Shown: in pieces, positions 10,375-60,411 of the stretch
How positions within the stretch are numbered: the stretch's first letter is position 1
Layout: each line of letters begins with the position of its first letter
Virus record (IMG/VR): IMGVR_UViG_3300005512_000032
Span: 1-60,560 of that record
DNA from: a virus
Taxonomy: Duplodnaviria > Caudoviricetes
Length of the DNA: 60,560 nt
Strand: one strand, 5' to 3'
The notes under the pieces: model-generated
Databases searched by the model: none
Told to the model about the DNA's origin: nothing
What the model saw: the letters and a program-made list of their open reading frames with translations, nothing else
Translations under genes and position numbers: made by a program

Positions 10375-10749
10375 ATGGCCGCTCCGAATATTGTAAACGT
10401 CACCACGATCACAGGCAAAACTGCCGTGGTGAGTCTCTCAACAACAAGCGCAACAGAGATCGTGAGCAACGCCGCCGCTTCTGGCAAGGTGTTCAAGATC
10501 AATTCATTGGTGGTATCGAATGTGGACGGCACGTCCGCCGCAGACATCACTGTCAGCTACTACAGCGAGGATAACATTGGCGGTACCGCGACCGAAATAG
10601 TTTCAACGGTTTCTGTCCCTGCTGACGCATCCCTTGTAGTGATCGACAAGAACTCTTCATTGTATCTTGAGGAAGACCGTTCTATTGGAGCGACCGCAGG
10701 TACAGCCAGCGATCTGAAGGTTATCGCGAGCTACGAAGAGATCTCATAA
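10375..10749 (+). CDS. Tail-fibre-associated structural protein
   Basis: MAAPNIVNV...SYEEIS pattern that commonly follows AIAMAIVFG-type fibres. Confidence 0.6.
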   Translation: MAAPNIVNVTTITGKTAVVSLSTTSATEIVSNAAASGKVFKINSLVVSNVDGTSAADITVSYYSEDNIGGTATEIVSTVSVPADASLVVIDKNSSLYLEEDRSIGATAGTASDLKVIASYEEIS

Positions 10750-12156
10750 ATGGCTAAAGGTCCCGGTGGAATTATTTCTGGTGGATTTGATCCGCTCAAC
10801 GCCCCAGATGCGCCAACCATTGATTCTGTCAGCGCAGGTGTATTAACTGCTGATGTCACGTTCTCTGCTCCAGCCGACACGGGCGCAGGCACGGTAGACT
10901 CGTATGTAATCACTGCCAAGCAGAGCGATGGCACAGGTGTGTCTGCCACAGCCTCTGCCGCTGGTACAACCACTGTTACCCTCACCGCAGGCGGTACAAC
11001 GACATTCGCCGCTCAAGCAATCAGCAATGCCTTCGGACCCGGTGCTTTTAGTGGGTTTGGTAACTCGACTTCAGTGTTTAGTGGTCAGGAGTTGTATGCT
11101 TGGGGTTTTAATACTAATGGTAATCTAGGCGTAAATGACAGAACTTCAAGAAGCTCTCCAACTCAAGTGGGTTCTTTGACAACATGGTCTCAGGTTTCAA
11201 CTGACAGTGGAGGGACGCTGGCAATTAAAACAGATGGAACTCTTTGGTCTTGGTCAAATAACAATGTAGGGCAAGCTGGGGACGGGACCACCATAAGCAG
11301 ATCTTCCCCGGTTCAAATTGGATCTGAAACTAATTGGGCAAAAGTCGTCGGATCTCGTGGTGATTGCTCTTTGGCGATTGATACCGATGGAAAACTCTAC
11401 GCATGGGGCGCTGGTCCTAATGGTGAGTTAGGGACCAATGACACAATAGCAAAATCCTCCCCAGTACAAGTCGGTGCTTTGACTAACTGGTCAGATATAT
11501 CAATCGGAAACGATCACTGCCTTGCAATTAAAACTGACGGTACGTTATGGGCGTGGGGAGGAGATACCAATGGAGCGGTTGGGGACGGTACCGCAACTAA
11601 AAGATCATCTCCGGTACAAATCGGTTCTGATACGGATTGGCTTCAGGCTTCTGCGGGAAATGATTTTAGCATCGGCATAAAAACAGACGGCACATTATAT
11701 GGTTGGGGAAGAAATGATGACGGGCAACACGGAGACGGAACCAAAACAGACAGCTTTACTCCGGGAGCGTCTGCTATAGCTCCAGCGTTTGCTCAAATTT
11801 CTGCCGGCACGGAATGGGCTTTAGGAATCACCGCTGATGGTGAAATGTGGTCATGGGGCAATAATTCTAGCGGAAGGCTTGGGTTAAACATTGATCAAAC
11901 CATAGATAGATCATCTCCTGTACAAATTGGGGCACTAACAAGCTGGTCACAGGCTGATGCAGGCTCTTCTCACGGTGCCGCAATAAAGACTGACGGAACA
12001 GCGTGGTCATGGGGAAGCAACAACACTGGACAGCTTGGAAATAACTCTCCTTTCAGTGTAAATAGATCCTCGCCCGTACAAATTGGTTCAGAGACAAGTT
12101 GGACAAGTATTTCGGCGGGGACCGTTACGATGGGCACATTCGGAACAACCTCATAG
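10750..12156 (+). CDS. RCC1/BLIP-II repeat beta-propeller with an N-terminal FN3-like domain (copy 1)
   Basis: About seven ~50-aa repeats of AIKTDGTLW.WG.N..GQLG....RSSPVQIG. Confidence 0.9.
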   Translation: MAKGPGGIISGGFDPLNAPDAPTIDSVSAGVLTADVTFSAPADTGAGTVDSYVITAKQSDGTGVSATASAAGTTTVTLTAGGTTTFAAQAISNAFGPGAFSGFGNSTSVFSGQELYAWGFNTNGNLGVNDRTSRSSPTQVGSLTTWSQVSTDSGGTLAIKTDGTLWSWSNNNVGQAGDGTTISRSSPVQIGSETNWAKVVGSRGDCSLAIDTDGKLYAWGAGPNGELGTNDTIAKSSPVQVGALTNWSDISIGNDHCLAIKTDGTLWAWGGDTNGAVGDGTATKRSSPVQIGSDTDWLQASAGNDFSIGIKTDGTLYGWGRNDDGQHGDGTKTDSFTPGASAIAPAFAQISAGTEWALGITADGEMWSWGNNSSGRLGLNIDQTIDRSSPVQIGALTSWSQADAGSSHGAAIKTDGTAWSWGSNNTGQLGNNSPFSVNRSSPVQIGSETSWTSISAGTVTMGTFGTTS

Positions 12157-45495: not shown

Positions 45496-45803
45496 TTTAC
45501 CGTCCCCCTTCTGCCAGCGCGAAGCGCGGCGTCCAGCCTTAATTGCCTGACGAGGTATCTCGCCTGATGCCGTGCGGTTTTCTTGGTTGGTGTGTGAAAC
45601 GCTGAAAAGAAACCAGAGGAGTAAACCAAACCGCCTCGTGGACCAAACGTCATGAACGCCTGATCGATCTCCCCTATAAGTTTGATCCGCAACCAGACCG
45701 CGCCAATGGCGGTCTCGTACGGCTCTGCTTCCAACGTGTACCCAGCTTCGGGCGCGAGATTTTCAACCGCCCGAAGTAATCTGTCTTGGAACTTGGTATA
45801 CAT
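45492..45803 (-). CDS. Hypothetical early protein
   Basis: AAGGAG RBS; GPRGG motif. Confidence 0.55.
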   Translation of the reverse strand: MYTKFQDRLLRAVENLAPEAGYTLEAEPYETAIGAVWLRIKLIGEIDQAFMTFGPRGGLVYSSGFFSAFHTPTKKTARHQARYLVRQLRLDAALRAGRRGTVK

Positions 45804-45814
45804 AACTAGCTCCT

Positions 45815-46030
45815 TTATCTAACCGTGAAATCACTGATGACTGAGTCGAAAGCGTCGATCTTTCTTTGAATTGCGCGCTTGTCTTCTTCCGAAAGCATGT
45901 CCATGTCCATGAGCTCCACATTACAAGACCTGCTGTCATGGAGTTTGCCCAGAAGAAGTTGATCCACAAGCGTCTCACCATCTTCGATGTATAATTCAGC
46001 CTTCACTGTGATTTGAATTTTGTCACTCAT
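45815..46030 (-). CDS. Hypothetical early protein
   Basis: GGGAG RBS. Confidence 0.5.
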   Translation of the reverse strand: MSDKIQITVKAELYIEDGETLVDQLLLGKLHDSRSCNVELMDMDMLSEEDKRAIQRKIDAFDSVISDFTVR

Positions 46031-46041
46031 TTCATTTCTCC

Positions 46042-46632
46042 CTAGTAGTTGTACTGCTCTGCACGGCGATCACGCACTTCTCGCTCGAACGCGATGTAGT
46101 GCTTGAACGTTGTTGGCTGAACATAACCCGGACCCTCGAGCCCATCGTAGAATGATTGAATCCATTCGGCCGCCTGAACCCAGTGGGTAAAGCGGTGAAT
46201 GTCATCACTCTCGCACTGGTCACAGTCACGTGACCATGAGTAGAAATAGATGCCGTCCTTAAACTCTTGATCAAGGCGCTGGAACATCCAGTCGAAAAGC
46301 TCGGTCAGTGACTGACGCTTTAAAGGCTTGATGTCATAGTACGAATACTTTGGAGCGCCGACATCAGTGCTGTCATCGATCTCATGCATCCACTTGTGAG
46401 ACGCCAGTGCGCGTGGGTAAAACCAACCCCTGCGAACTCGCCCGCGAACCAGACGCATGGTCTCTTCAGTCTCCTCTTTTGAATCAGCGTGAACAGTGCG
46501 GTAAGTTCTTAGATACTCCCGCGTGAAATCATTCCACAGATCGTCATAGGCGGTATGCATTTCAGCGAATGACTTGTCTTCGTTTGCCTCGTTCGAAAGA
46601 AGCGCGAAACAGATTTGATTGTAAAAGTTCAT
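46042..46632 (-). CDS. Hypothetical early protein
   Basis: GGGAGA RBS directly downstream of a hammerhead. Confidence 0.6.
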   Translation of the reverse strand: MNFYNQICFALLSNEANEDKSFAEMHTAYDDLWNDFTREYLRTYRTVHADSKEETEETMRLVRGRVRRGWFYPRALASHKWMHEIDDSTDVGAPKYSYYDIKPLKRQSLTELFDWMFQRLDQEFKDGIYFYSWSRDCDQCESDDIHRFTHWVQAAEWIQSFYDGLEGPGYVQPTTFKHYIAFEREVRDRRAEQYNY

Positions 46633-46654
46633 AGGTATTCTCCCAATTGATTGA

Positions 46655-46715
46655 GGCCTGTCTCATCAGATCGTGGGCGGCCATCCCACAATGACCCGCC
46701 GGAGCGGGTTTCGAC
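46655..46715 (-). ncRNA. Hammerhead ribozyme, type II (HH-E)
   Basis: - strand GUC GAAA CCCGC-UCCG-GCGGG UC^ AUUGUGGG-AUGGCCG-CCCACGAU CUGAUGA GAC AGGCC; predicted cut between 46693 and 46692. Confidence 0.93.
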
Positions 46716-47039
46716 TTACGCCATGACAACGTCATTGAACCAGTCTTCGATCCACTTGTCGCTGTTCGCTGGGTTCGCGTCAGGACGGGTGTAGTTCATC
46801 GAGTGATCCATGACTGTCTCGTCATCATTGACGAACAGATTGATGTGCGCCGAACCACGGTACACTCTGTCGTCCCCGTAGAATCTCAGCACAGGCAAAT
46901 CATCCAGTGCTTCGATCATGTCCTTGACTTCCTTGTAGCTCGAAGAGTTCTCAACCTCGAGCCCCTCCATGGAGACCACGTCAATCGTGAAACCGTGATC
47001 GTTCAGTGCGTGCTTGATCAGTGATAGATATGCTTTCAT
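46716..47039 (-). CDS. Hypothetical early protein
   Basis: Its stop codon abuts HH-E. Confidence 0.6.
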   Translation of the reverse strand: MKAYLSLIKHALNDHGFTIDVVSMEGLEVENSSSYKEVKDMIEALDDLPVLRFYGDDRVYRGSAHINLFVNDDETVMDHSMNYTRPDANPANSDKWIEDWFNDVVMA

Positions 47040-47275
47040 GACTTCCCCCGAATCAGGTGTGGTTCAACCAGAAACAAATTCTCTGGCGTGCAAGTTGATA
47101 CTGCGTAGTTGGCGCCATGGAACCGTACGCCTGACTCTCCGATCCAGCCCACGTCCTTGCACACGATGCGCTTGGGCGTGACTTTGGAGATCTCGTAGAC
47201 GCGGTCCTCGAGGCCGTTGATGTTCCAGACCAGTTGGCCTGCGCGTAGATTGTGCTGAATGTTGTTTGTGTTCAT
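47036..47275 (-). CDS. Hypothetical early protein
   Basis: RBS present; coupled to the next gene. Confidence 0.55.
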   Translation of the reverse strand: MNTNNIQHNLRAGQLVWNINGLEDRVYEISKVTPKRIVCKDVGWIGESGVRFHGANYAVSTCTPENLFLVEPHLIRGKS

Positions 47276-47305
47276 AGTGTTTCCCTGTTGCTTACTGAGT
47301 AAACG

Positions 47306-47345
47306 AATGAGGCGCCCGAAATATTTCAGACGCCTTCATTTTTTT
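47306..47345. terminator. Intergenic hairpin (terminator-like on +, or a processing stem)
   Basis: AATGAGGCGCCCGAA-ATAT-TTCAGACGCCTTCATT followed by a T run on the + strand. Confidence 0.45.
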
Positions 47346-47754
47346 AAGATCCCATGTGGACCAGTAAGAATTGAGTCTTGCCCATAGACACCGGCTCAAT
47401 CTGTTCAATGAACCGTCCCCAGTAACCACACTTGTCCATCAGGTCTGCCACACAATAGGCCATCTCCAATGGATCCATGTACTTGCCGTAGACGCCCGCC
47501 AAATGCTCTGAGAACCAGAGCGGCGAGTCATCACGCATAACAGCGTGCTCTACACCTTGACTCAGGTCAGGCGACTTGAAAGCGACAGCGTATTGACCAT
47601 CAGGCAAATCAATCTGAGGACATTCATCGTCCAGTGAAAACATGATTCGCAGTGGCTGTTGGCAGTCGTTCTGTGTGCTCGACTTGAACTCATAGACGGT
47701 GCTCAGGTTATAGCCGTTCCGGAGGTCCATCGCGGCTTCATGTAAATCAACCAT
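47344..47754 (-). CDS. Hypothetical early protein
   Basis: True start is probably the ATG at 47754 after GGGAGA; the longer call runs into the ribozyme. Confidence 0.55.
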   Translation of the reverse strand: MVDLHEAAMDLRNGYNLSTVYEFKSSTQNDCQQPLRIMFSLDDECPQIDLPDGQYAVAFKSPDLSQGVEHAVMRDDSPLWFSEHLAGVYGKYMDPLEMAYCVADLMDKCGYWGRFIEQIEPVSMGKTQFLLVHMGS

Positions 47755-47772
47755 AGTTATTCTCCCGTGTTT

Positions 47773-47836
47773 TGACATGGCTCTTCAGGCCGTGGTCTGT
47801 CACACCACAACGACAGGGCCGGAGCCCTGTTTCGCC
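47773..47836 (-). ncRNA. Hammerhead ribozyme, type II (HH-D)
   Basis: - strand GGC GAAA CAGGGC-UCCG-GCCCUG UC^ GUUGUGGU-GUGACAG-ACCACGGC CUGAAGA GCC AUGUCA; loop UGACA pairs with tail UGUCA; cut between 47812 and 47811. Confidence 0.92.
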
Positions 47837-48034
47837 TCACGAACAATGACGCAGTTCGATTGCGTCCTCCGGCAGGTATACAGAATAAAAATCCTGCACG
47901 TTTTCAACCAGCTCGTCATGGAGCAGGCAGAAACTAAATGGCTTGAAATACATGATCTCGCCATCGTCAAACTTGCAGTACATGACGCGAGTGTAATTGT
48001 CGGGCATCGAGCCCATCGTGACTTTAGGTATCAT
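47837..48034 (-). CDS. Hypothetical early protein
   Basis: RBS present; stop codon abuts HH-D. Confidence 0.55.
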   Translation of the reverse strand: MIPKVTMGSMPDNYTRVMYCKFDDGEIMYFKPFSFCLLHDELVENVQDFYSVYLPEDAIELRHCS

Positions 48035-48052
48035 GGTTCCCCCTTGGGCCGC

Positions 48053-48934
48053 TTACGCGGCCTCCACTAGTGATGACATGTCGGCGGTGTCCAGAGCGAA
48101 CCGCGCCGCCTTCTCTGCGTGCGAGCATGCTGTGATCAATGCCCGCTTGTCTTTCTTCAATACGTTCAGCCAGTTGTTCAGGTATTTGGCGTGATCGTCC
48201 CGTGGCTCATTGGTGACACCAGTCACACCACAGAGAATCGCCGCACCCATCTCAGCAACCAGCTCCTCGAAGGCATACGCCTCATCGCCGAAGCGCTTGC
48301 CAAACTCACGATTGAGTCGTGACTCGTGACCGGTCCAGTGGACCAGCTCGTGGAGTGCGGTGCCGTAGTAGCCGGCAGGATCCGCGAACTGTTCAGGCTT
48401 GGGCAGGGTGATGGCGTCCACACTTGGAGCGTAGAATGCACGATCGCTGGCCACGTTGCGGATGACCGCGCCCGAACCAGATAAAACGGCTTCAGCGGTC
48501 ACGTGCTCCTCCCAGTCATTGTCATCCGGGATAGTGTCCGGCTCAATACGTAAACCATCAGCTCCCTGCACTTGGTCAATGTTGAAGACCACGAACGACT
48601 TCAGGATAGGGAACGAAACAGTCTCACCTGTCTCGTCTTCTTTGGTCACCTTAGAGAACCAGACCACGTGTGTGCCCTTGGATCCCTTGGTCACTTGAGC
48701 GCCCATCGACTTCCACTGCTTGAACGTGGCGAAGACTGGTTGGCCCCAGCCGTTGTCCATCATGGCAAGCTGAAGCATCCAGCGATTGACTCCAGAGTAT
48801 GGACGCCCAACCGCAGAGCGAGGAGCGCCGTGCTCCACTGTCGCCGCAACCCATGGCTGGGTCCAGTTGGCGCCGTGTGTCTCCATCATTTCGATCACGC
48901 GATCTGTGATCTGCTCAATAACATTTGATTTCAT
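48053..48934 (-). CDS. ardC: ArdC-like antirestriction protein (ssDNA-binding domain plus zincin)
   Basis: W..PW, YSG.N...L, TFKQW...G.QV.KG.KG, VFN.DQ, HELVHWTGH..RL.R and YA.EELVAE motifs. Confidence 0.9.
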   Translation of the reverse strand: MKSNVIEQITDRVIEMMETHGANWTQPWVAATVEHGAPRSAVGRPYSGVNRWMLQLAMMDNGWGQPVFATFKQWKSMGAQVTKGSKGTHVVWFSKVTKEDETGETVSFPILKSFVVFNIDQVQGADGLRIEPDTIPDDNDWEEHVTAEAVLSGSGAVIRNVASDRAFYAPSVDAITLPKPEQFADPAGYYGTALHELVHWTGHESRLNREFGKRFGDEAYAFEELVAEMGAAILCGVTGVTNEPRDDHAKYLNNWLNVLKKDKRALITACSHAEKAARFALDTADMSSLVEAA

Positions 48935-48953
48935 GGTGTTCTCCCAGTTGTTT

Positions 48954-49013
48954 GCCCTGTCTCATCAGTGTGGGTAGGGCTCATCCCACAGACCGGCCGG
49001 AGCCGGTTTCGAC
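48954..49013 (-). ncRNA. Hammerhead ribozyme, type II (HH-C)
   Basis: - strand GUC GAAA CCGGC-UCCG-GCCGG UC^ UGUGGG-AUGAGCCCUA-CCCACA CUGAUGA GAC AGGGC; loop GCCCU pairs with tail AGGGC; cut between 48991 and 48990. Confidence 0.95.
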
Positions 49014-49216
49014 TATGCTGGATACAACTCCTGCTTTGGCATTTCGATCTCTTCGATAACGAACTCGCAAAGTAAATTGTGAGCGGTCATCGAACCCTGC
49101 CAATTCATCGCGCATTGTTTGTTGTACGTGGACACCATCAGCACCTTTGGTGCTTGGTTCCACTTAGTGCTTCCGCGCTCTTGAGCATAGACGTTGTATA
49201 GCTTTGAAGTATCCAT
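49013..49216 (-). CDS. Hypothetical early protein (67 aa) flanked by two ribozymes
   Basis: Start MDTSKLYNV after GGGGA RBS. Confidence 0.55.
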   Translation of the reverse strand: MDTSKLYNVYAQERGSTKWNQAPKVLMVSTYNKQCAMNWQGSMTAHNLLCEFVIEEIEMPKQELYPA

Positions 49217-49237
49217 GTGTATTCCCCTTATGTGTTT

Positions 49238-49297
49238 GGCCTGTCTCATCAGTGGCAGGAGGCCGGATCTGCCAGACGCCCCGTAGGGCGTTTCGAC
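49238..49297 (-). ncRNA. Hammerhead ribozyme, type II (HH-B)
   Basis: - strand GUC GAAA CGCCC-UACG-GGGCG UC^ UGGCAG-AUCCGGCCUC-CUGCCA CUGAUGA GAC AGGCC; loop GGCCU pairs with tail AGGCC; cut between 49275 and 49274. Confidence 0.95.
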
Positions 49298-49740
49298 TAT
49301 GCCTTGGTCCAGTACGAATTGACTGGGCGGTATGTGCAGTCCCAGAGGTCTCGACACTCGCCATTCACAATCGCGGTGAGGTGACCTGAGTTGGTGACCA
49401 CAGCGCGGCTGGGTGCAGTGTGCCAGTCGCGCAACTTAATCAGTTTGCCAAGACCATCACGTGGACACTTGTTTTTGATCCAGCCCTGATCCTTCAGGTA
49501 CCGCTCAAAAACGCATGGCCAATTGGGATAGGCGCCGTATTCCATGCCCAAGTACATCAGCTCGCGGAAGACCTGTTCGTATGGCAGGTCCAGCGCGATC
49601 ACGATGGAGCGAACCACACAGTCCTCTGTGCGCTTGCCCCGAAATTTGTACCCAACCTTGGATCGTCCGCCATCGTCCCAAACCCAATTGATCTCAGATT
49701 GAAGACCAAGGTCTTTGCAAACGTCTTTGTATAAGTTCAT
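49297..49740 (-). CDS. First early gene; hypothetical, possibly a papain/C39-like fold
   Basis: DCVVRSI...GHLTAI.NG...D.WD gives a candidate Cys/His/Asp triad; GAGGA RBS. Confidence 0.55.
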   Translation of the reverse strand: MNLYKDVCKDLGLQSEINWVWDDGGRSKVGYKFRGKRTEDCVVRSIVIALDLPYEQVFRELMYLGMEYGAYPNWPCVFERYLKDQGWIKNKCPRDGLGKLIKLRDWHTAPSRAVVTNSGHLTAIVNGECRDLWDCTYRPVNSYWTKA

Positions 49741-49748
49741 AGGTAGTT

Positions 49749-49808
49749 CCTCGTGTTTCGTTGGCGTTCTCATCAGAGCAGGCTCGCCACTGCCTGCTAA
49801 CACGAAGG
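49749..49808 (-). ncRNA. Hammerhead ribozyme, type III with minimal stem II (HH-A)
   Basis: - strand CCUUCGUG UU^ AGCAGGC-AGUGGCGA-GCCUGCU CUGAUGA G-AACGCCAA-C GAAA CACGAGG; loops UGGCG and CGCCA are complementary; cut between 49799 and 49798. Confidence 0.85.
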
Positions 49809-50041
49809 AGGGTTATCCGGCTGGTGCACGGTGCGAATGTTTGAGGGAGACCTTACTGTGACAGCGGAACCCCGAAGGCGCTGAAACCATCCAGAATCCA
49901 GAAACACCGTCAGCGTGCAGACCAGATAACCTGAGAAGCAAATTGTTAAAAACCACTCCGCCGATGCGGGGCTCAGGGGCCGCCTGAGCGAGGGCTGGTT
50001 GTTGAAACATCGCCAAAGACAACACCCAACCCACATCTAGG

Positions 50042-50070
50042 ATTCTGAGACTTGCGGAGACACCTGTCAA
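50042..50070 (-). promoter_or_regulatory. Sigma70-type promoter for the early operon
   Basis: TTGACA-17 nt-CAGAAT on the - strand with an A-rich upstream tract. Confidence 0.7.
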
Positions 50071-50173
50071 CAGTTGGAGACAAAATAATTCAACTTTTTT
50101 TCGGTAAAATGGTAAGTGACTGGAGCGCAAGGGATTTTCTGGCGCCCGAAATAGATCAGACGAGGATCTCCAA

Positions 50174-50632
50174 ATGACAGAGACACGATTACAGGTAGTG
50201 GCAGGACAATCAATCAAGGGAGGACTGACCGCTAAACAAGAGGCTTTCGCTCAGGGAGTGGCATCAGGCAAGACACTCAGTGAGGCGTACAGGAATGCGT
50301 ACGATGCTGAGAACATGAAAGACGCCAGCATATGGAACGAGGCAAGCAGACTCATGGATCACCCACAGGTCACAGCGAGGGTCAGTGCGATACAGAAGGC
50401 CACAGAAGAGAAAACACTGCATGATCAGGCTCGCTTGAGGAGGCTGGTTCTTGAGCGGCTGTACGAAGAGAGCGCCAACGCAGAGAGTGACAGCGCCCGG
50501 ATCAGAGCTCTCGAACTCCTAGGCAAATCCATTGCCATGTTCACCGATAAGCTGGAACAGGAGACCAAGGAGAGGAGTGCGGCCGAGATAGAACAGGAGC
50601 TCATCGCCCGTCTTCAAAGGCTTTCGGGCTGA
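50174..50632 (+). CDS. terS: Terminase small subunit
   Basis: LTAKQEAFA......SEAYR.AY...ASRL...P.V and ALELLGK...MF motifs. Confidence 0.8.
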   Translation: MTETRLQVVAGQSIKGGLTAKQEAFAQGVASGKTLSEAYRNAYDAENMKDASIWNEASRLMDHPQVTARVSAIQKATEEKTLHDQARLRRLVLERLYEESANAESDSARIRALELLGKSIAMFTDKLEQETKERSAAEIEQELIARLQRLSG

Positions 50633-59725: not shown

Positions 59726-59769
59726 TCCTGACAGCATTATGCTGACACTTGCCACGACAGGAGATTGAC

Positions 59770-60411
59770 ATGGCTAACACAACTTTCACAGGACCAGTTC
59801 GGTCCGAAGGCGGATTCGAGGTTGTTGACAAAAATGCGGCAACCGGAACTTTCACCACTTCCCTAGATATTGCATCTGATGGTGCGATTGATTTAACTTA
59901 TTCAAGCTCCGACACAGGTACTGGGAACGTCGAACCGATTGTCATGGAAAACACCATGACAGGCGCTGGCGGATTGGCAGGTCGTGCTCGCTTTCAATTG
60001 AATGCTGATGCCGCTTTGGGTTCTTACTCAAACGCAATGAAAGCAATCACTGTATATGGAGCCTCAGGCAAGACAACCGGCTTGGGCTCAGCTTTTGTTG
60101 CAGAGATGACCTTATCTGCTGGCACTGATGCAGGCACTTATGCCCCACTTGAGATTGAACTGAATGCTCCAACAGGTGCCGACACAGGTACGTTGACATC
60201 ATTCATCCACATTTCAACACAGGGTGATGATGTCGCAACAATTGATGACAACGTGCGTTTGTTCAACCTTGCGGGTGTAACTGCGGGTACAGGGCATGTG
60301 TTCCAAACAGGTAACACCGCCCCAGCAACAGTTGGTGGCACATTGAAGTGCCGTGTTGCAGGAACAGACTACTACGTTATCCTGTATACAAGCGAAGCGA
60401 CCACCACCTAA
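59770..60411 (+). CDS. Putative head fibre/structural protein
   Basis: MANTTFTGPVRSE.GF N-terminus; AGGAG RBS. Confidence 0.6.
   Translation: MANTTFTGPVRSEGGFEVVDKNAATGTFTTSLDIASDGAIDLTYSSSDTGTGNVEPIVMENTMTGAGGLAGRARFQLNADAALGSYSNAMKAITVYGASGKTTGLGSAFVAEMTLSAGTDAGTYAPLEIELNAPTGADTGTLTSFIHISTQGDDVATIDDNVRLFNLAGVTAGTGHVFQTGNTAPATVGGTLKCRVAGTDYYVILYTSEATTT

What the first reader, a model, noticed from the sequence alone, without database searches (positions are those of the whole stretch)
49738..49808. Leader type III hammerhead sequesters the RBS of the first early gene
Seen: HH-A has a different topology, with an open stem III, a 1-bp stem II and complementary loops UGGCG/CGCCA. The 3' strand of stem III (CACGAGG) overlaps the GAGGA Shine-Dalgarno of the ATG at 49740. 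Inference: cleavage releases the 5' strand and exposes the RBS, making it a natural cleavage-activated translation switch or timer.
Basis: partly seen in the sequence, partly recalled or inferred. Interest (0 to 1): 0.72.

Follow-up and report, generated by a model that had tools for sequence, protein, structure and literature searches.

The report
Leader hammerhead masks first gene's RBS
A genuine self-cleaving hammerhead RNA ends the untranslated leader of a phage operon and, in this phage, base-pairs with the ribosome-binding site of the first gene, so cutting probably trims the leader and frees the site; relatives show the masking is a local extra, not the ribozyme's general job.

Summary
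On the minus strand, 49807-49749 has every hammerhead core residue, an open stem III of 8 bp, a 7-bp stem I, a 1-bp stem II and a 5-bp loop-loop pseudoknot. Cleavage is predicted between U49799 and A49798. Stem III covers 4 of the 5 Shine-Dalgarno bases, 8 nt before ATG 49740.

It is not chance. I collected 28 distinct sequences of this architecture from viral and metagenome contigs. They show covariation in stems I and III and in the pseudoknot. A model built without the window finds HH-A at 42.8 bits, against 22.0 or less for decoys.

In 15 of 27 relatives the ribozyme sits, as here, in the leader of the operon divergent from the small terminase gene. The first gene behind it varies (16 groups in 27 loci). 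Further ribozymes often follow.

Folding predicts the SD masked before cleavage (P unpaired 0.06) and partly freed afterwards (0.38). That holds in only 3 of 26 relatives, and there is no sensor domain.

I read it as a constitutive leader-removing, RiboJ-like 5'-end processing ribozyme, with cleavage-coupled RBS unmasking as a lineage-specific addition. It is not a switch or timer. No RNA data exist and activity is untested.

The parts
50042..50070 (-). Promoter-like site: TTGACA, 17 nt, CAGAAT. The inferred transcription start is near 50035.
   Evidence: 10 of 12 consensus matches; 1 site found against 0.4 expected in shuffles. The start site is inferred, not shown.
49799..50035 (-). Leader of about 237 nt, probably non-coding. 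It would be released as the 5' cleavage fragment ending in U49799.
   Evidence: The only long frame in it (ORF79, 50036-49797) has a codon score of -0.20, against +0.18 to +0.42 for the operon's genes, and has no homologue.
49943..49954 (-). boxA-like motif GGUUUUUAACAA, matching 10 of 12 bases of the rrnB boxA core. Hairpins at 49989-49971 and 49969-49958 precede it.
   Evidence: The boxA sequence was checked in PMC2176067 (passages). L006 has the exact 12-mer 36 nt upstream of its cleavage site. The window's match alone is within chance.
49805..49811 (-). CCUCCUU, an anti-SD-like stretch that overlaps and extends the 5' strand of stem III.
   Evidence: the minimum-free-energy fold pairs UCCU with AGGA of the SD.
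49800..49807 (-). Stem III 5' strand CUUCGUGU. U49800 is U16.1.
   Evidence: Covariation at the 4th and 5th pairs of the helix across the family.
49798..49799 (-). Predicted cleavage site, GUU|A, between U49799 (position 17) and A49798 (position 1.1).
   Evidence: Position follows from hammerhead numbering (established knowledge). 25 of 28 family members have GUC at the site and 3 have GUU. Cleavage itself is not shown.
49777..49798 (-). Stem I hairpin: AGCAGGC, loop AGUGGCGA, GCCUGCU. 7 bp.
   Evidence: 7 bp in 27 of 28 members; 6 of 7 pairs change on both sides; 94.9% of cells paired.
49785..49789 (-). Pseudoknot strand in loop I (UGGCG). It pairs with 49762-49766.
   Evidence: GGU in loop I goes with ACC in loop II in 21 of 21 members, and GGC with GCC in 7 of 7.
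49770..49776 (-). Catalytic core CUGAUGA (positions 3-9).
49760..49769 (-). Stem II, the single pair G49769-C49760, closing loop II AACGCCAA. CGCCA (49766-49762) is the second pseudoknot strand.
   Evidence: The G-C pair was fixed by my search pattern, so its invariance in the family carries no information.
49757..49759 (-). Core GAA (positions 12-14).
49749..49756 (-). Stem III 3' strand ACACGAGG. A49756 is A15.1.
49748..49752 (-). Shine-Dalgarno GAGGA. 4 of its 5 bases lie in stem III. A 7-nt spacer separates it from the ATG.
   Evidence: Unpaired probability 0.06 before cleavage and 0.37-0.38 after.
49297..49740 (-). First gene of the operon (P0001, 147 aa). It matches phage family phrog_3754, function unknown.
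   Evidence: E 6.2e-16. Codon score +0.22. No Pfam family.
49235..49298 (-). Type II hammerhead directly after gene 1. Its first bases overlap the stop codon.
   Evidence: RF02276, 40.4 bits.
48951..49014 (-). Type II hammerhead after gene 2 and before the ArdC-like gene (48934-48053).
   Evidence: RF02276, 35.2 bits, just under the gathering score of 37. for ArdC.
47770..47837 (-). Type II hammerhead (core CUGAAGA).
   Evidence: RF02276, 37.2 bits.
46652..46716 (-). Type II hammerhead.
   Evidence: RF02276, 43.9 bits.

Best explanation
HH-A is an active type III hammerhead of a pseudoknot-stabilised subclass with a 1-bp stem II. It forms the last 60 nt of the roughly 237-nt non-coding leader of the phage's non-structural (ArdC-containing) operon. 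This operon is transcribed divergently from the small terminase gene.

Once the 3' strand of stem III is transcribed, the ribozyme folds and cuts between U49799 and A49798. The leader is discarded. The mRNA keeps the whole ribozyme body as a compact 5' end: a 5'-OH, the stem I hairpin and the pseudoknot, directly in front of the SD and ATG. This resembles the engineered RiboJ insulator.

In this phage the 5' strand of stem III is extended by an anti-SD-like CCUCCUU. The uncleaved RNA therefore has its SD paired. Translation of gene 1 becomes possible only after cleavage and dissociation of the 8-10 bp helix. The step is constitutive, a maturation step that couples translation to leader removal. 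It is not a regulated switch or a timer.

Shown: the anatomy, family membership, covariation, synteny and predicted accessibilities. Inferred: the cleavage itself, the transcription start, the fate of the fragments and the effect on translation.
For: - Core and helices are complete.
- Chance controls: 6 of 300 shuffled windows give any hit, and 0 of 300 with stems of 6 bp or more.
- Family: 28 distinct sequences score 49.5-81.6 bits with model R1; every other pattern-positive sequence scores 34.4 or less.
- Covariation on A3: 84.2% of cells paired against 66.9 +/- 1.4 in shuffles; covariation score 0.428 against 0.119; 0 of 500 shuffles reach either value; slid controls give 32-40% paired.
- Pseudoknot covariation: 21 of 21 and 7 of 7.
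- Held-out model: 42.8 bits, against 22.0 or less for decoys.
- Leader position is conserved. A TerS homologue (41-80% identity) lies divergently upstream in 15 of 27 other loci.
- The first gene downstream falls into 16 BLASTP groups in 27 loci. The ribozyme belongs to the promoter-leader module, not to the gene.
- The ribozyme ends 6-16 nt before the start codon in 25 of 27 loci.
- Further ribozymes follow in the window (4 type II), L006 (3), L231 (2), L207 (3) and L161 (a twister).
- SD masking in the window: 0.06 before cleavage, 0.37-0.38 after.
- In contigs of close strains, none of the 12 variable places in 49650-50100 lies in 49748-49811.
- Engineered precedents exist for both halves of the mechanism: RiboJ (PMC6206723, passages) and ribozyme-controlled RBS access (PMC7445771, passages).
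Against: - No cleavage or expression data: no RNA run holds the stretch.
- Rfam's hammerhead models do not reach their thresholds on HH-A. None of the leader hammerheads in 14 relatives' loci reaches a threshold either.
- GUU is the rarer site triplet (3 of 28).
- SD masking is predicted in only 3 of 26 relatives and is absent in L011, the closest relative evaluated. It may therefore be incidental.
- In the 3' product the SD is only partly free (0.37), because AGG can pair with the CCU just before the ATG.
- The folding model ignores the pseudoknot and tertiary structure.
- The family was gathered with a pattern derived from the window and then chosen for its ability to fold, so invariant core columns are true by construction.
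- 6 of 9 leader SNPs are synonymous in ORF79. This weakly opposes a non-coding leader.
Confidence: 0.55

Rival explanations
1. Pure 5'-end processing or insulation. The ribozyme only removes the leader and gives the mRNA a defined, hairpin-capped 5'-OH end, which affects stability and frees the RBS from leader context. The overlap of stem III with the SD is a by-product of packing the ribozyme tightly against the start codon and has no measurable effect on translation.
For: - 23 of 26 relatives show no predicted change in SD accessibility on cleavage; the median is 0.47 before and 0.49 after.
- Tight spacing is the conserved feature: 6-16 nt in 25 of 27 loci.
- The first gene is variable: 16 groups in 27 loci.
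- The nearest relative evaluated, L011, lacks masking.
- RiboJ raises expression without any masking design (PMC6206723, passages).
Against: The window's 5' flank carries CCUCCUU, a seven-base stretch of the kind found at the 16S rRNA 3' end (recalled). It pairs with all five SD bases in the minimum-free-energy fold. The helix is 8-10 bp where most relatives have 5. L006 and L218 show the same masking with different sequences.
Confidence: 0.25
2. It is a cleavage-activated translation switch or timer whose cleavage rate or product release is tuned or regulated to delay or gate expression of the first gene.
For: The SD is paired before cleavage (0.06). The 8-10 bp product helix of -12.4 kcal/mol is longer than in most relatives. 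GUU is a site usually considered slower than GUC (recalled).
Against: There is no aptamer or other sensor: loops I and II are 8 nt each and are used by the pseudoknot. A pseudoknotted hammerhead with a 1-bp stem II was measured at more than 1.2 per min at 0.5 mM Mg2+ (PMC3088659, passages). My estimate of helix release is seconds to tens of seconds. Masking is not conserved (3 of 26).
Confidence: 0.1
3. The product that matters is the leader. The ribozyme defines the 3' end of a roughly 237-nt RNA carrying hairpins and a boxA-like element. It either releases that RNA, or leaves it attached to the elongating polymerase as an antitermination signal, while detaching the mRNA.
For: A boxA-like 12-mer lies in the window (10 of 12 bases), and the exact rrnB boxA core lies in L006 36 nt before the cleavage site. 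In both a hairpin comes just upstream (boxA sequence from PMC2176067).
Against: Only 2 of 28 loci have a match within 2 changes that looks like boxA. The window's match is within chance: I estimate about 0.4 such matches expected over the 28 upstream regions. The leader varies among strains, with 9 SNPs in 49842-50025. A type III cut leaves the leader's 3' end without a protecting hairpin.
Confidence: 0.07
4. It is not a working ribozyme: a chance match or a decayed copy.
For: No Rfam threshold hit. A single-pair stem II. No RNA evidence.
Against: as above. The element is invariant in four strains' contigs. A 1-bp stem II with a pseudoknot is known to be active (PMC3088659).
Confidence: 0.03

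Closest known systems
Pseudoknotted bacterial and phage hammerheads of Perreault et al. 2011 (PMC3088659; I read section 6 and passages). [quoted passage not shown]
   Same: Consensus core. A helix between loop I and the stem II side replaces the usual tertiary contact. Stem II is reduced to one pair. The setting is a phage operon with an anti-restriction gene and several ribozymes in a row.
   Different: Their one-pair example and the consensus they describe are type II, with the pseudoknot formed by a 3' tail. HH-A is type III, with the pseudoknot strand inside a closed loop II. The paper's text does not mention a ribosome-binding site or Shine-Dalgarno sequence (0 occurrences). Their alignments (Dataset S1) could already contain members of this subclass. 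Supplements were closed, so I could not check.
Rfam Hammerhead_3 (RF00008) and Hammerhead_II (RF02276).
   Same: Same ribozyme class. The four downstream ribozymes of the operon are RF02276 matches.
   Different: HH-A reaches no gathering score; its best is 18.8 bits, misaligned to RF02276. None of the leader hammerheads in 14 relatives' loci is reported at gathering thresholds. The classical phage type III hammerheads seen have a 3-5 bp stem II and no loop-loop helix, and by my reading's printed sequences (not counted) usually sit some 15-30 nt from the start codon.
RiboJ, the engineered ribozyme insulator: an sTRSV hammerhead plus a hairpin (PMC6206723, passages).
   Same: A type III hammerhead placed between promoter or leader and RBS. 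Self-cleavage removes the leader and leaves a structured 5' end in front of the RBS.
   Different: RiboJ is synthetic, uses a separate added hairpin to expose the RBS, and does not mask it before cleavage. HH-A is natural and, in this phage, pairs the SD within stem III.
Engineered ribozyme-controlled RBS access in bacteria, i.e. aptazymes (PMC7445771, passages).
   Same: The SD is paired within a ribozyme helix, and cleavage makes it accessible.
   Different: Those constructs carry an aptamer and respond to a ligand. HH-A has no such domain. Most of them use type I scaffolds with the SD in stem I (recalled).
Hammerheads in the 5' UTRs of fungal and plant RNA viruses, whose self-cleavage is required for translation initiation (PMC13725137; abstract and outline only).
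   Same: A natural 5'-UTR hammerhead whose cleavage licenses translation of the downstream ORF.
   Different: The setting is eukaryotic cap-independent initiation, the ribozymes are type I, and the mechanism is not SD unmasking.

Membership tests
Hammerhead ribozyme, type III topology | Conserved core: CUGANGA (positions 3-9), GAA (12-14), the pair A15.1-U16.1, and a non-G at position 17. | tested here: met
   CUGAUGA at 49776-49770, GAA at 49759-49757, A49756-U49800, U49799.
Hammerhead ribozyme, type III topology | Three helices around the core, with stems I and II closed by loops and stem III open. | tested here: met
   Stem I 7 bp, stem II 1 bp, stem III 8 bp. Family covariation score 0.428 against 0.119 in shuffles, 0 of 500 shuffles as high. 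The alignment was fitted to the model and the sequences were chosen for their ability to fold.
Hammerhead ribozyme, type III topology | A tertiary contact that holds stems I and II parallel. | tested here: met
   Loop-loop helix UGGCG/CGCCA. GGU goes with ACC in 21 of 21 members and GGC with GCC in 7 of 7. Mean helix length is 4.43 bp, against 3.38 with loop II shuffled.
Hammerhead ribozyme, type III topology | Site-specific self-cleavage giving 2',3'-cyclic phosphate and 5'-OH ends. | not testable with these tools
   No RNA run is listed. Only DNA contigs could be laid.
Rfam hammerhead families (clan CL00010) | Score at or above the family's gathering threshold. | tested here: not met
   The best match is 18.8 bits to RF02276, whose gathering score is 37.
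Cleavage-unmasked RBS (works like engineered RBS-masking ribozymes) | The SD is base-paired in the uncleaved ribozyme and accessible in the 3' product. | tested here: met
   In the window, unpaired probability is 0.06 before cleavage and 0.37-0.38 after. This is a thermodynamic prediction only. In the family it holds for 3 of 26 sequences.
Cleavage-unmasked RBS (works like engineered RBS-masking ribozymes) | Translation depends on cleavage. | not testable with these tools
   Needs a reporter assay with active and dead ribozyme.
Riboswitch or aptazyme (a ligand-gated switch) | A ligand- or factor-binding domain coupled to the ribozyme. | tested here: not met
   Loops I and II are 8 nt each and pair with each other. 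No riboswitch family is reported by Rfam in 45500-50500 at E up to 10.
RiboJ-like 5' insulator (works like) | A ribozyme between the leader and the RBS. The leader is removed and the module does not depend on which gene follows. | tested here: met
   Promoter-like site at 50070-50042. Divergent TerS synteny in 15 of 27 loci. First genes fall into 16 groups in 27 loci. Removal of the leader itself is inferred.

The most novel reading that the evidence does not exclude
A natural ribozyme-gated RBS. In this phage lineage, translation of the first gene of the host-takeover operon strictly requires self-cleavage. The same cut detaches a boxA-bearing antitermination leader from the mRNA. The conserved unit terS-divergent promoter / leader / type III pseudoknot hammerhead would then be a natural RiboJ-like expression cassette, which phages place in front of interchangeable early genes. 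That would give phage hammerheads a defined function for the first time.
Probability: 0.25. Interest if true: 0.75.

Novelty: new variant of a known kind. Interest (0 to 1): 0.55.

Why it matters
Why phages carry arrays of hammerheads has been an open question since 2011. A 2019 review says more work is needed to define their purpose (PMC6765202, passages). A 2023 paper calls the reason for the ribozyme-phage gene association 'still unknown' (PMC10085705, passages).

This locus gives a concrete, cheap test. It is a ribozyme whose own helix contains the SD of the next gene. It belongs to a conserved module at the head of the operon, with natural comparison points: the relative L011 (and, by its flanking sequence, L184, not folded) has the same ribozyme without SD masking. 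The type II ribozymes further down the same operon leave a hairpin on both cleavage products.

It would also be a natural counterpart of two widely used synthetic-biology parts, RiboJ and RBS-masking ribozymes. My literature searches found no description of a natural bacterial or phage hammerhead that masks a Shine-Dalgarno sequence. Subscription journals and supplementary files were not searched.

Tried and rejected
**Searches that found no relatives**
- BLASTN of 49200-50100 against 50,697 phage records gave no match.
- The search for related loci with gene 1 in viral contigs found no relative.
- The genome contigs pattern scan returned 18 loci. By eye none has the fold, and all score 22.0 bits or less with R2. 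I used them as decoys. No prophage or host was identified.

**RNA evidence**
- No RNA holder is listed for 49000-50200.
- The four runs laid are DNA contigs, so nothing can be said about cleavage or expression.

**ORF79 (50036-49797)**
Its UAG stop codon spans the cleavage site, so I considered it as a real first gene.
- For: 6 of 9 strain SNPs are synonymous in its frame, against 4 of 9 (5 amino-acid changes) and 1 of 9 (8 changes) in the other two frames. It also has a hydrophobic stretch.
- Against: codon score -0.20, versus +0.18 to +0.42 for six genes of the operon; no homologue and no called gene; no SD.
- Rejected as probably non-coding, with low certainty.

**boxA as a general feature of these leaders**
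Only L006 (exact) and the window (2 changes) have it. The four other matches, in L213 (2 changes) and L184, L050, L163 (3 changes each), do not look like boxA. Kept only as a side note.

**Timer**
Rejected on the estimated release time of the product helix and on published rates for a pseudoknotted 1-bp stem II hammerhead.

**Rows dropped before counts**
- From the 80 distinct pattern-positive segments I chose 28 as the family, by fold. Model R1 then separated the same 28.
- L199, L247, L223, L224, L237, L195/L233 and L249 were examined by eye. I set them aside as chance matches or as type II hammerheads followed by GAAACA.
- L184 has no usable start codon before its contig end, so it is absent.
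- L189 is too close to its contig end.
- L193 (same sequence as the window) and L212 (same as L006) were counted once.

**Not used**
- Structure prediction, fold search, complex prediction and the protein-atlas search were not used, because the question concerns RNA.
Full report
**What the window is**

The window is a complete 60,560-bp viral record with direct terminal repeats. A run of small minus-strand genes extends from about 50070 down to about 44300.
- It includes an ArdC-type anti-restriction gene at 48934-48053 (Pfam PF08401 and PF18818; phrog_7245).
- Rfam places four type II hammerheads (RF02276) in it, at 49298-49235, 49014-48951, 47837-47770 and 46716-46652. Three are above the gathering score and one is at 35.2 bits against 37.
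- The hammerhead at 49298-49235 starts on gene 1's stop codon; the other three lie in gaps between ORFs, and I did not check their stop codons.
- A small terminase subunit gene starts at 50174 on the other strand (PF03592).
- The only sigma-70-like promoter match in 49600-50400 lies at 50070-50042 on the minus strand.

**The observation**

On the minus strand the RNA reads: CUUCGUGU-U | AGCAGGC-AGUGGCGA-GCCUGCU-CUGAUGA-G-AACGCCAA-C-GAA-ACACGAGG-AACUACCU-AUG.

All hammerhead core positions are consensus. Stem III is open (type III) and 8 bp long. Stem I is 7 bp. Stem II is the single pair G49769-C49760. Loop I UGGCG is complementary to loop II CGCCA. The predicted cut is after GUU, between 49799 and 49798. 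GAGGA (49752-49748) lies 7 nt before ATG 49740, and four of its five bases are in stem III.

Just upstream, CCUCCUU (49811-49805) allows a shifted register in which all five SD bases pair. That register is the minimum-free-energy fold.

**Is it more than chance?**

The bare core pattern is not significant: 4 matches against 1.5 expected. The full type III descriptor is. It gives one hit in the window, hits in 6 of 300 shuffled windows, and none of 300 with both stems at 6 bp or more.

Rfam does not reach threshold here. The best match is 18.8 bits, misaligned to the type II model. I therefore looked for relatives.
- BLASTN against phage records found nothing, and a protein-anchored search found nothing.
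- Pattern scans written from the ribozyme's own core found relatives in viral contigs and in metagenome contigs.
- The same pattern in 185,579 prokaryote genomes gave 18 hits, none with the fold.

From 80 distinct pattern-positive segments I chose 28 that fold as type III hammerheads with a 1-2 bp stem II. A covariance model (R1) separated exactly these: 49.5-81.6 bits, against 34.4 or less for everything else.

Evidence on the model-fitted alignment A3:
- 84.2% of cells pair, against 66.9 +/- 1.4 in shuffles.
- The covariation score is 0.428 against 0.119, with 0 of 500 shuffles as high.
- Sliding the 3' partners gives 32-40% paired.
- Six of the seven stem I pairs, and the 4th and 5th stem III pairs, change on both sides.

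The pseudoknot covaries as well. GGU in loop I goes with ACC in loop II in 21 of 21 sequences, and GGC with GCC in 7 of 7. The next position often covaries too, as in GGUA/UACC, GGCG/CGCC, GGCA/UGCC and GGCU/AGCC.

A second model (R2) was built from 24 sequences, without the window, L006, L011 or L184. It finds HH-A at 42.8 bits. The next hit in the window scores 17.0, and the 18 decoys score 22.0 or less.

Caveats:
- The search pattern fixed about 20 positions, including G10.1, C11.1, the ACA of stem III and the UGG of loop I. Their invariance is by construction.
- The 28 sequences were chosen because they fold.
- The pseudoknot partner in loop II, the whole of stem I and the 5' strand of stem III were not fixed by the pattern.

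**Independent support from context**

In 15 of the 27 other loci, a homologue of the window's small terminase subunit (41-80% identity) lies divergently upstream of the ribozyme, as it does in the window. Several of the remaining loci are too short to tell.

The ribozyme is thus a conserved part of the leader of the operon that diverges from the terminase gene. The first gene behind it is not conserved: 27 products fall into 16 BLASTP groups.

Further ribozymes follow downstream:
- four type II hammerheads in the window;
- three type II in L006;
- two in L231, three in L207, and a Twister-P5 in L161;
- a second type III hammerhead with a long stem II in L089, L104 and L111.

In every case seen, the pseudoknotted type III form is the first of the series.

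In contigs of close strains from four runs of four studies, 12 places vary in 49650-50100. None of them lies in 49748-49811. At the leader's rate I would expect about 2 there, so this is only weak evidence of constraint.

**How it most likely works**

A type III cut leaves the upstream fragment without a protecting hairpin. It keeps the whole ribozyme body on the downstream RNA, which then begins with a 5'-OH, a 7-bp hairpin and the pseudoknot. The SD and start codon follow 6-16 nt after stem III in 25 of 27 loci.

The type II ribozymes further down the operon do the opposite. They leave a hairpin on both products, which suits cuts between two coding regions. This contrast follows from the topologies and is inference.

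The leader ribozyme therefore looks like a natural version of RiboJ. RiboJ is an sTRSV hammerhead placed between promoter and RBS. It removes the leader and raises transcript and protein levels (PMC6206723, passages). A conserved module in front of changing genes fits that reading.

**The SD-masking claim**

In the window the claim is structurally sound.
- The mean unpaired probability of the SD is 0.06 in the full-length leader RNA and 0.07 in a short precursor.
- It is 0.37-0.38 in the 3' product.
- The product helix is worth -12.4 kcal/mol as a duplex.

Across the family it is not general.
- The contiguous stem III contains 0 SD bases in 11 loci, 1 in 1 locus, 2 in 11, 3 in 2 and 4 in 2, out of 27.
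- Predicted masking that cleavage relieves is seen in 3 of 26: the window, L006 and L218. The medians are 0.47 before and 0.49 after. L089 changes in the opposite direction.
- L011, whose TerS is 70% identical to the window's, is not masked; L184 (80%) was not folded, though its stem III and SD flank read like L011's.

Masking therefore looks like a recent or labile addition in a few lineages. These predictions ignore tertiary structure and the pseudoknot.

**Why not a switch or timer**

Nothing in the element could sense a signal. A pseudoknotted hammerhead with a one-pair stem II was measured at more than 1.2 per min at 0.5 mM Mg2+ (PMC3088659, passages). From -12.4 kcal/mol I estimate that the helix is released within seconds to tens of seconds.

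I therefore prefer 'constitutive maturation that couples translation of gene 1 to removal of the leader' over 'switch or timer'.

**What is known**

Perreault et al. 2011 (section 6 and passages) already described:
- type II hammerheads;
- pseudoknots in all three topological types;
- an active one-pair stem II;
- clusters of hammerheads of types I-III flanking genes in prophages, one of them around ardA.

Their text says nothing about ribosome-binding sites. Later papers still call the function open (PMC6765202; PMC10085705).

Ribozyme-controlled RBS access is an engineered principle (PMC7445771). Cleavage-dependent translation has just been reported for type I hammerheads in 5' UTRs of fungal and plant RNA viruses (PMC13725137, abstract).

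My searches found no natural bacterial or phage case of SD masking by a hammerhead. Supplementary alignments of the 2011 paper could not be read and may already list this subclass.

**Verdict**

- The ribozyme is real (about 0.9) and belongs to a subclass that Rfam models miss.
- The SD overlap is real.
- That cleavage raises translation of gene 1 in this phage is plausible (about 0.5-0.6) but untested.
- That it acts as a regulated switch or timer is unlikely (about 0.1).

In novelty it is a new variant of a known kind. Interest is moderate, because it makes the old question of what phage hammerheads do directly testable with one reporter series.

Noticed in passing
window 49235-49298, 48951-49014, 47770-47837, 46652-46716 (minus strand): Four type II hammerheads punctuate the operon. 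The first (49235-49298) starts on the stop codon of gene 1; the others were not checked against stop codons. The one at 48951-49014 is just under Rfam's gathering score (35.2 against 37). The one at 47770-47837 has CUGAAGA in the core.
   Followed up: partly
window 49943-49954 (minus strand), with hairpins 49989-49971 and 49969-49958; L006 about 11245-11256: A boxA-like element lies in the leader. L006 carries the exact 12-base rrnB boxA core 36 nt before its cleavage site, and the window has 10 of 12 bases. In both a GC-rich hairpin comes just upstream, the order seen in rrn antiterminators (recalled). The window's match alone is within chance.
   Followed up: partly
window 49797-50036 (minus strand): A 79-codon frame starts at the predicted transcription start, and its UAG stop spans the cleavage site. 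6 of 9 strain SNPs are synonymous in it, but its codon score is -0.20 and it has no homologue.
   Followed up: yes
loci L184, L011, L213, L160, L104, L232, L155, L197, L158, L226, L089, L111, L245, L162, L190: A small terminase subunit homologue (41-80% identity) lies divergently upstream of the leader hammerhead. This conserved genome module spans quite distant phages.
   Followed up: yes
L161 12149-12219 (minus strand): A Twister-P5 ribozyme (37.7 bits; gathering score 37.6) lies about 220 nt downstream of the leader hammerhead. Two ribozyme classes therefore occur in series in one operon.
   Followed up: no
L089 1431-1503; L104 3377-3449; L111 about 10721-10812: A second type III hammerhead lies 550-1000 nt downstream. 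It has a conserved insertion of about 33 nt in stem II that could fold into two hairpins. The function of the insert is unknown.
   Followed up: no
window 59726-59772 (plus strand); L011 2170-2227: A Mu-gpT-DE RNA (RF03012; 57.6 and 51.7 bits) occurs in both phages.
   Followed up: no
window 49763-49797, contigs of runs X3 and X5: Other contigs in the same samples match only the ribozyme body and continue into L011-like flanks. One has a longer loop II. Several related phages carrying this leader ribozyme coexist in marine and saltern samples.
   Followed up: partly
window 47754-47778 (minus strand): The ATG listed for the 144-aa ORF lies inside the 3' tail of a type II hammerhead. A second ATG, 8 codons downstream and preceded by GGGAG, is the likelier start.
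   Followed up: no
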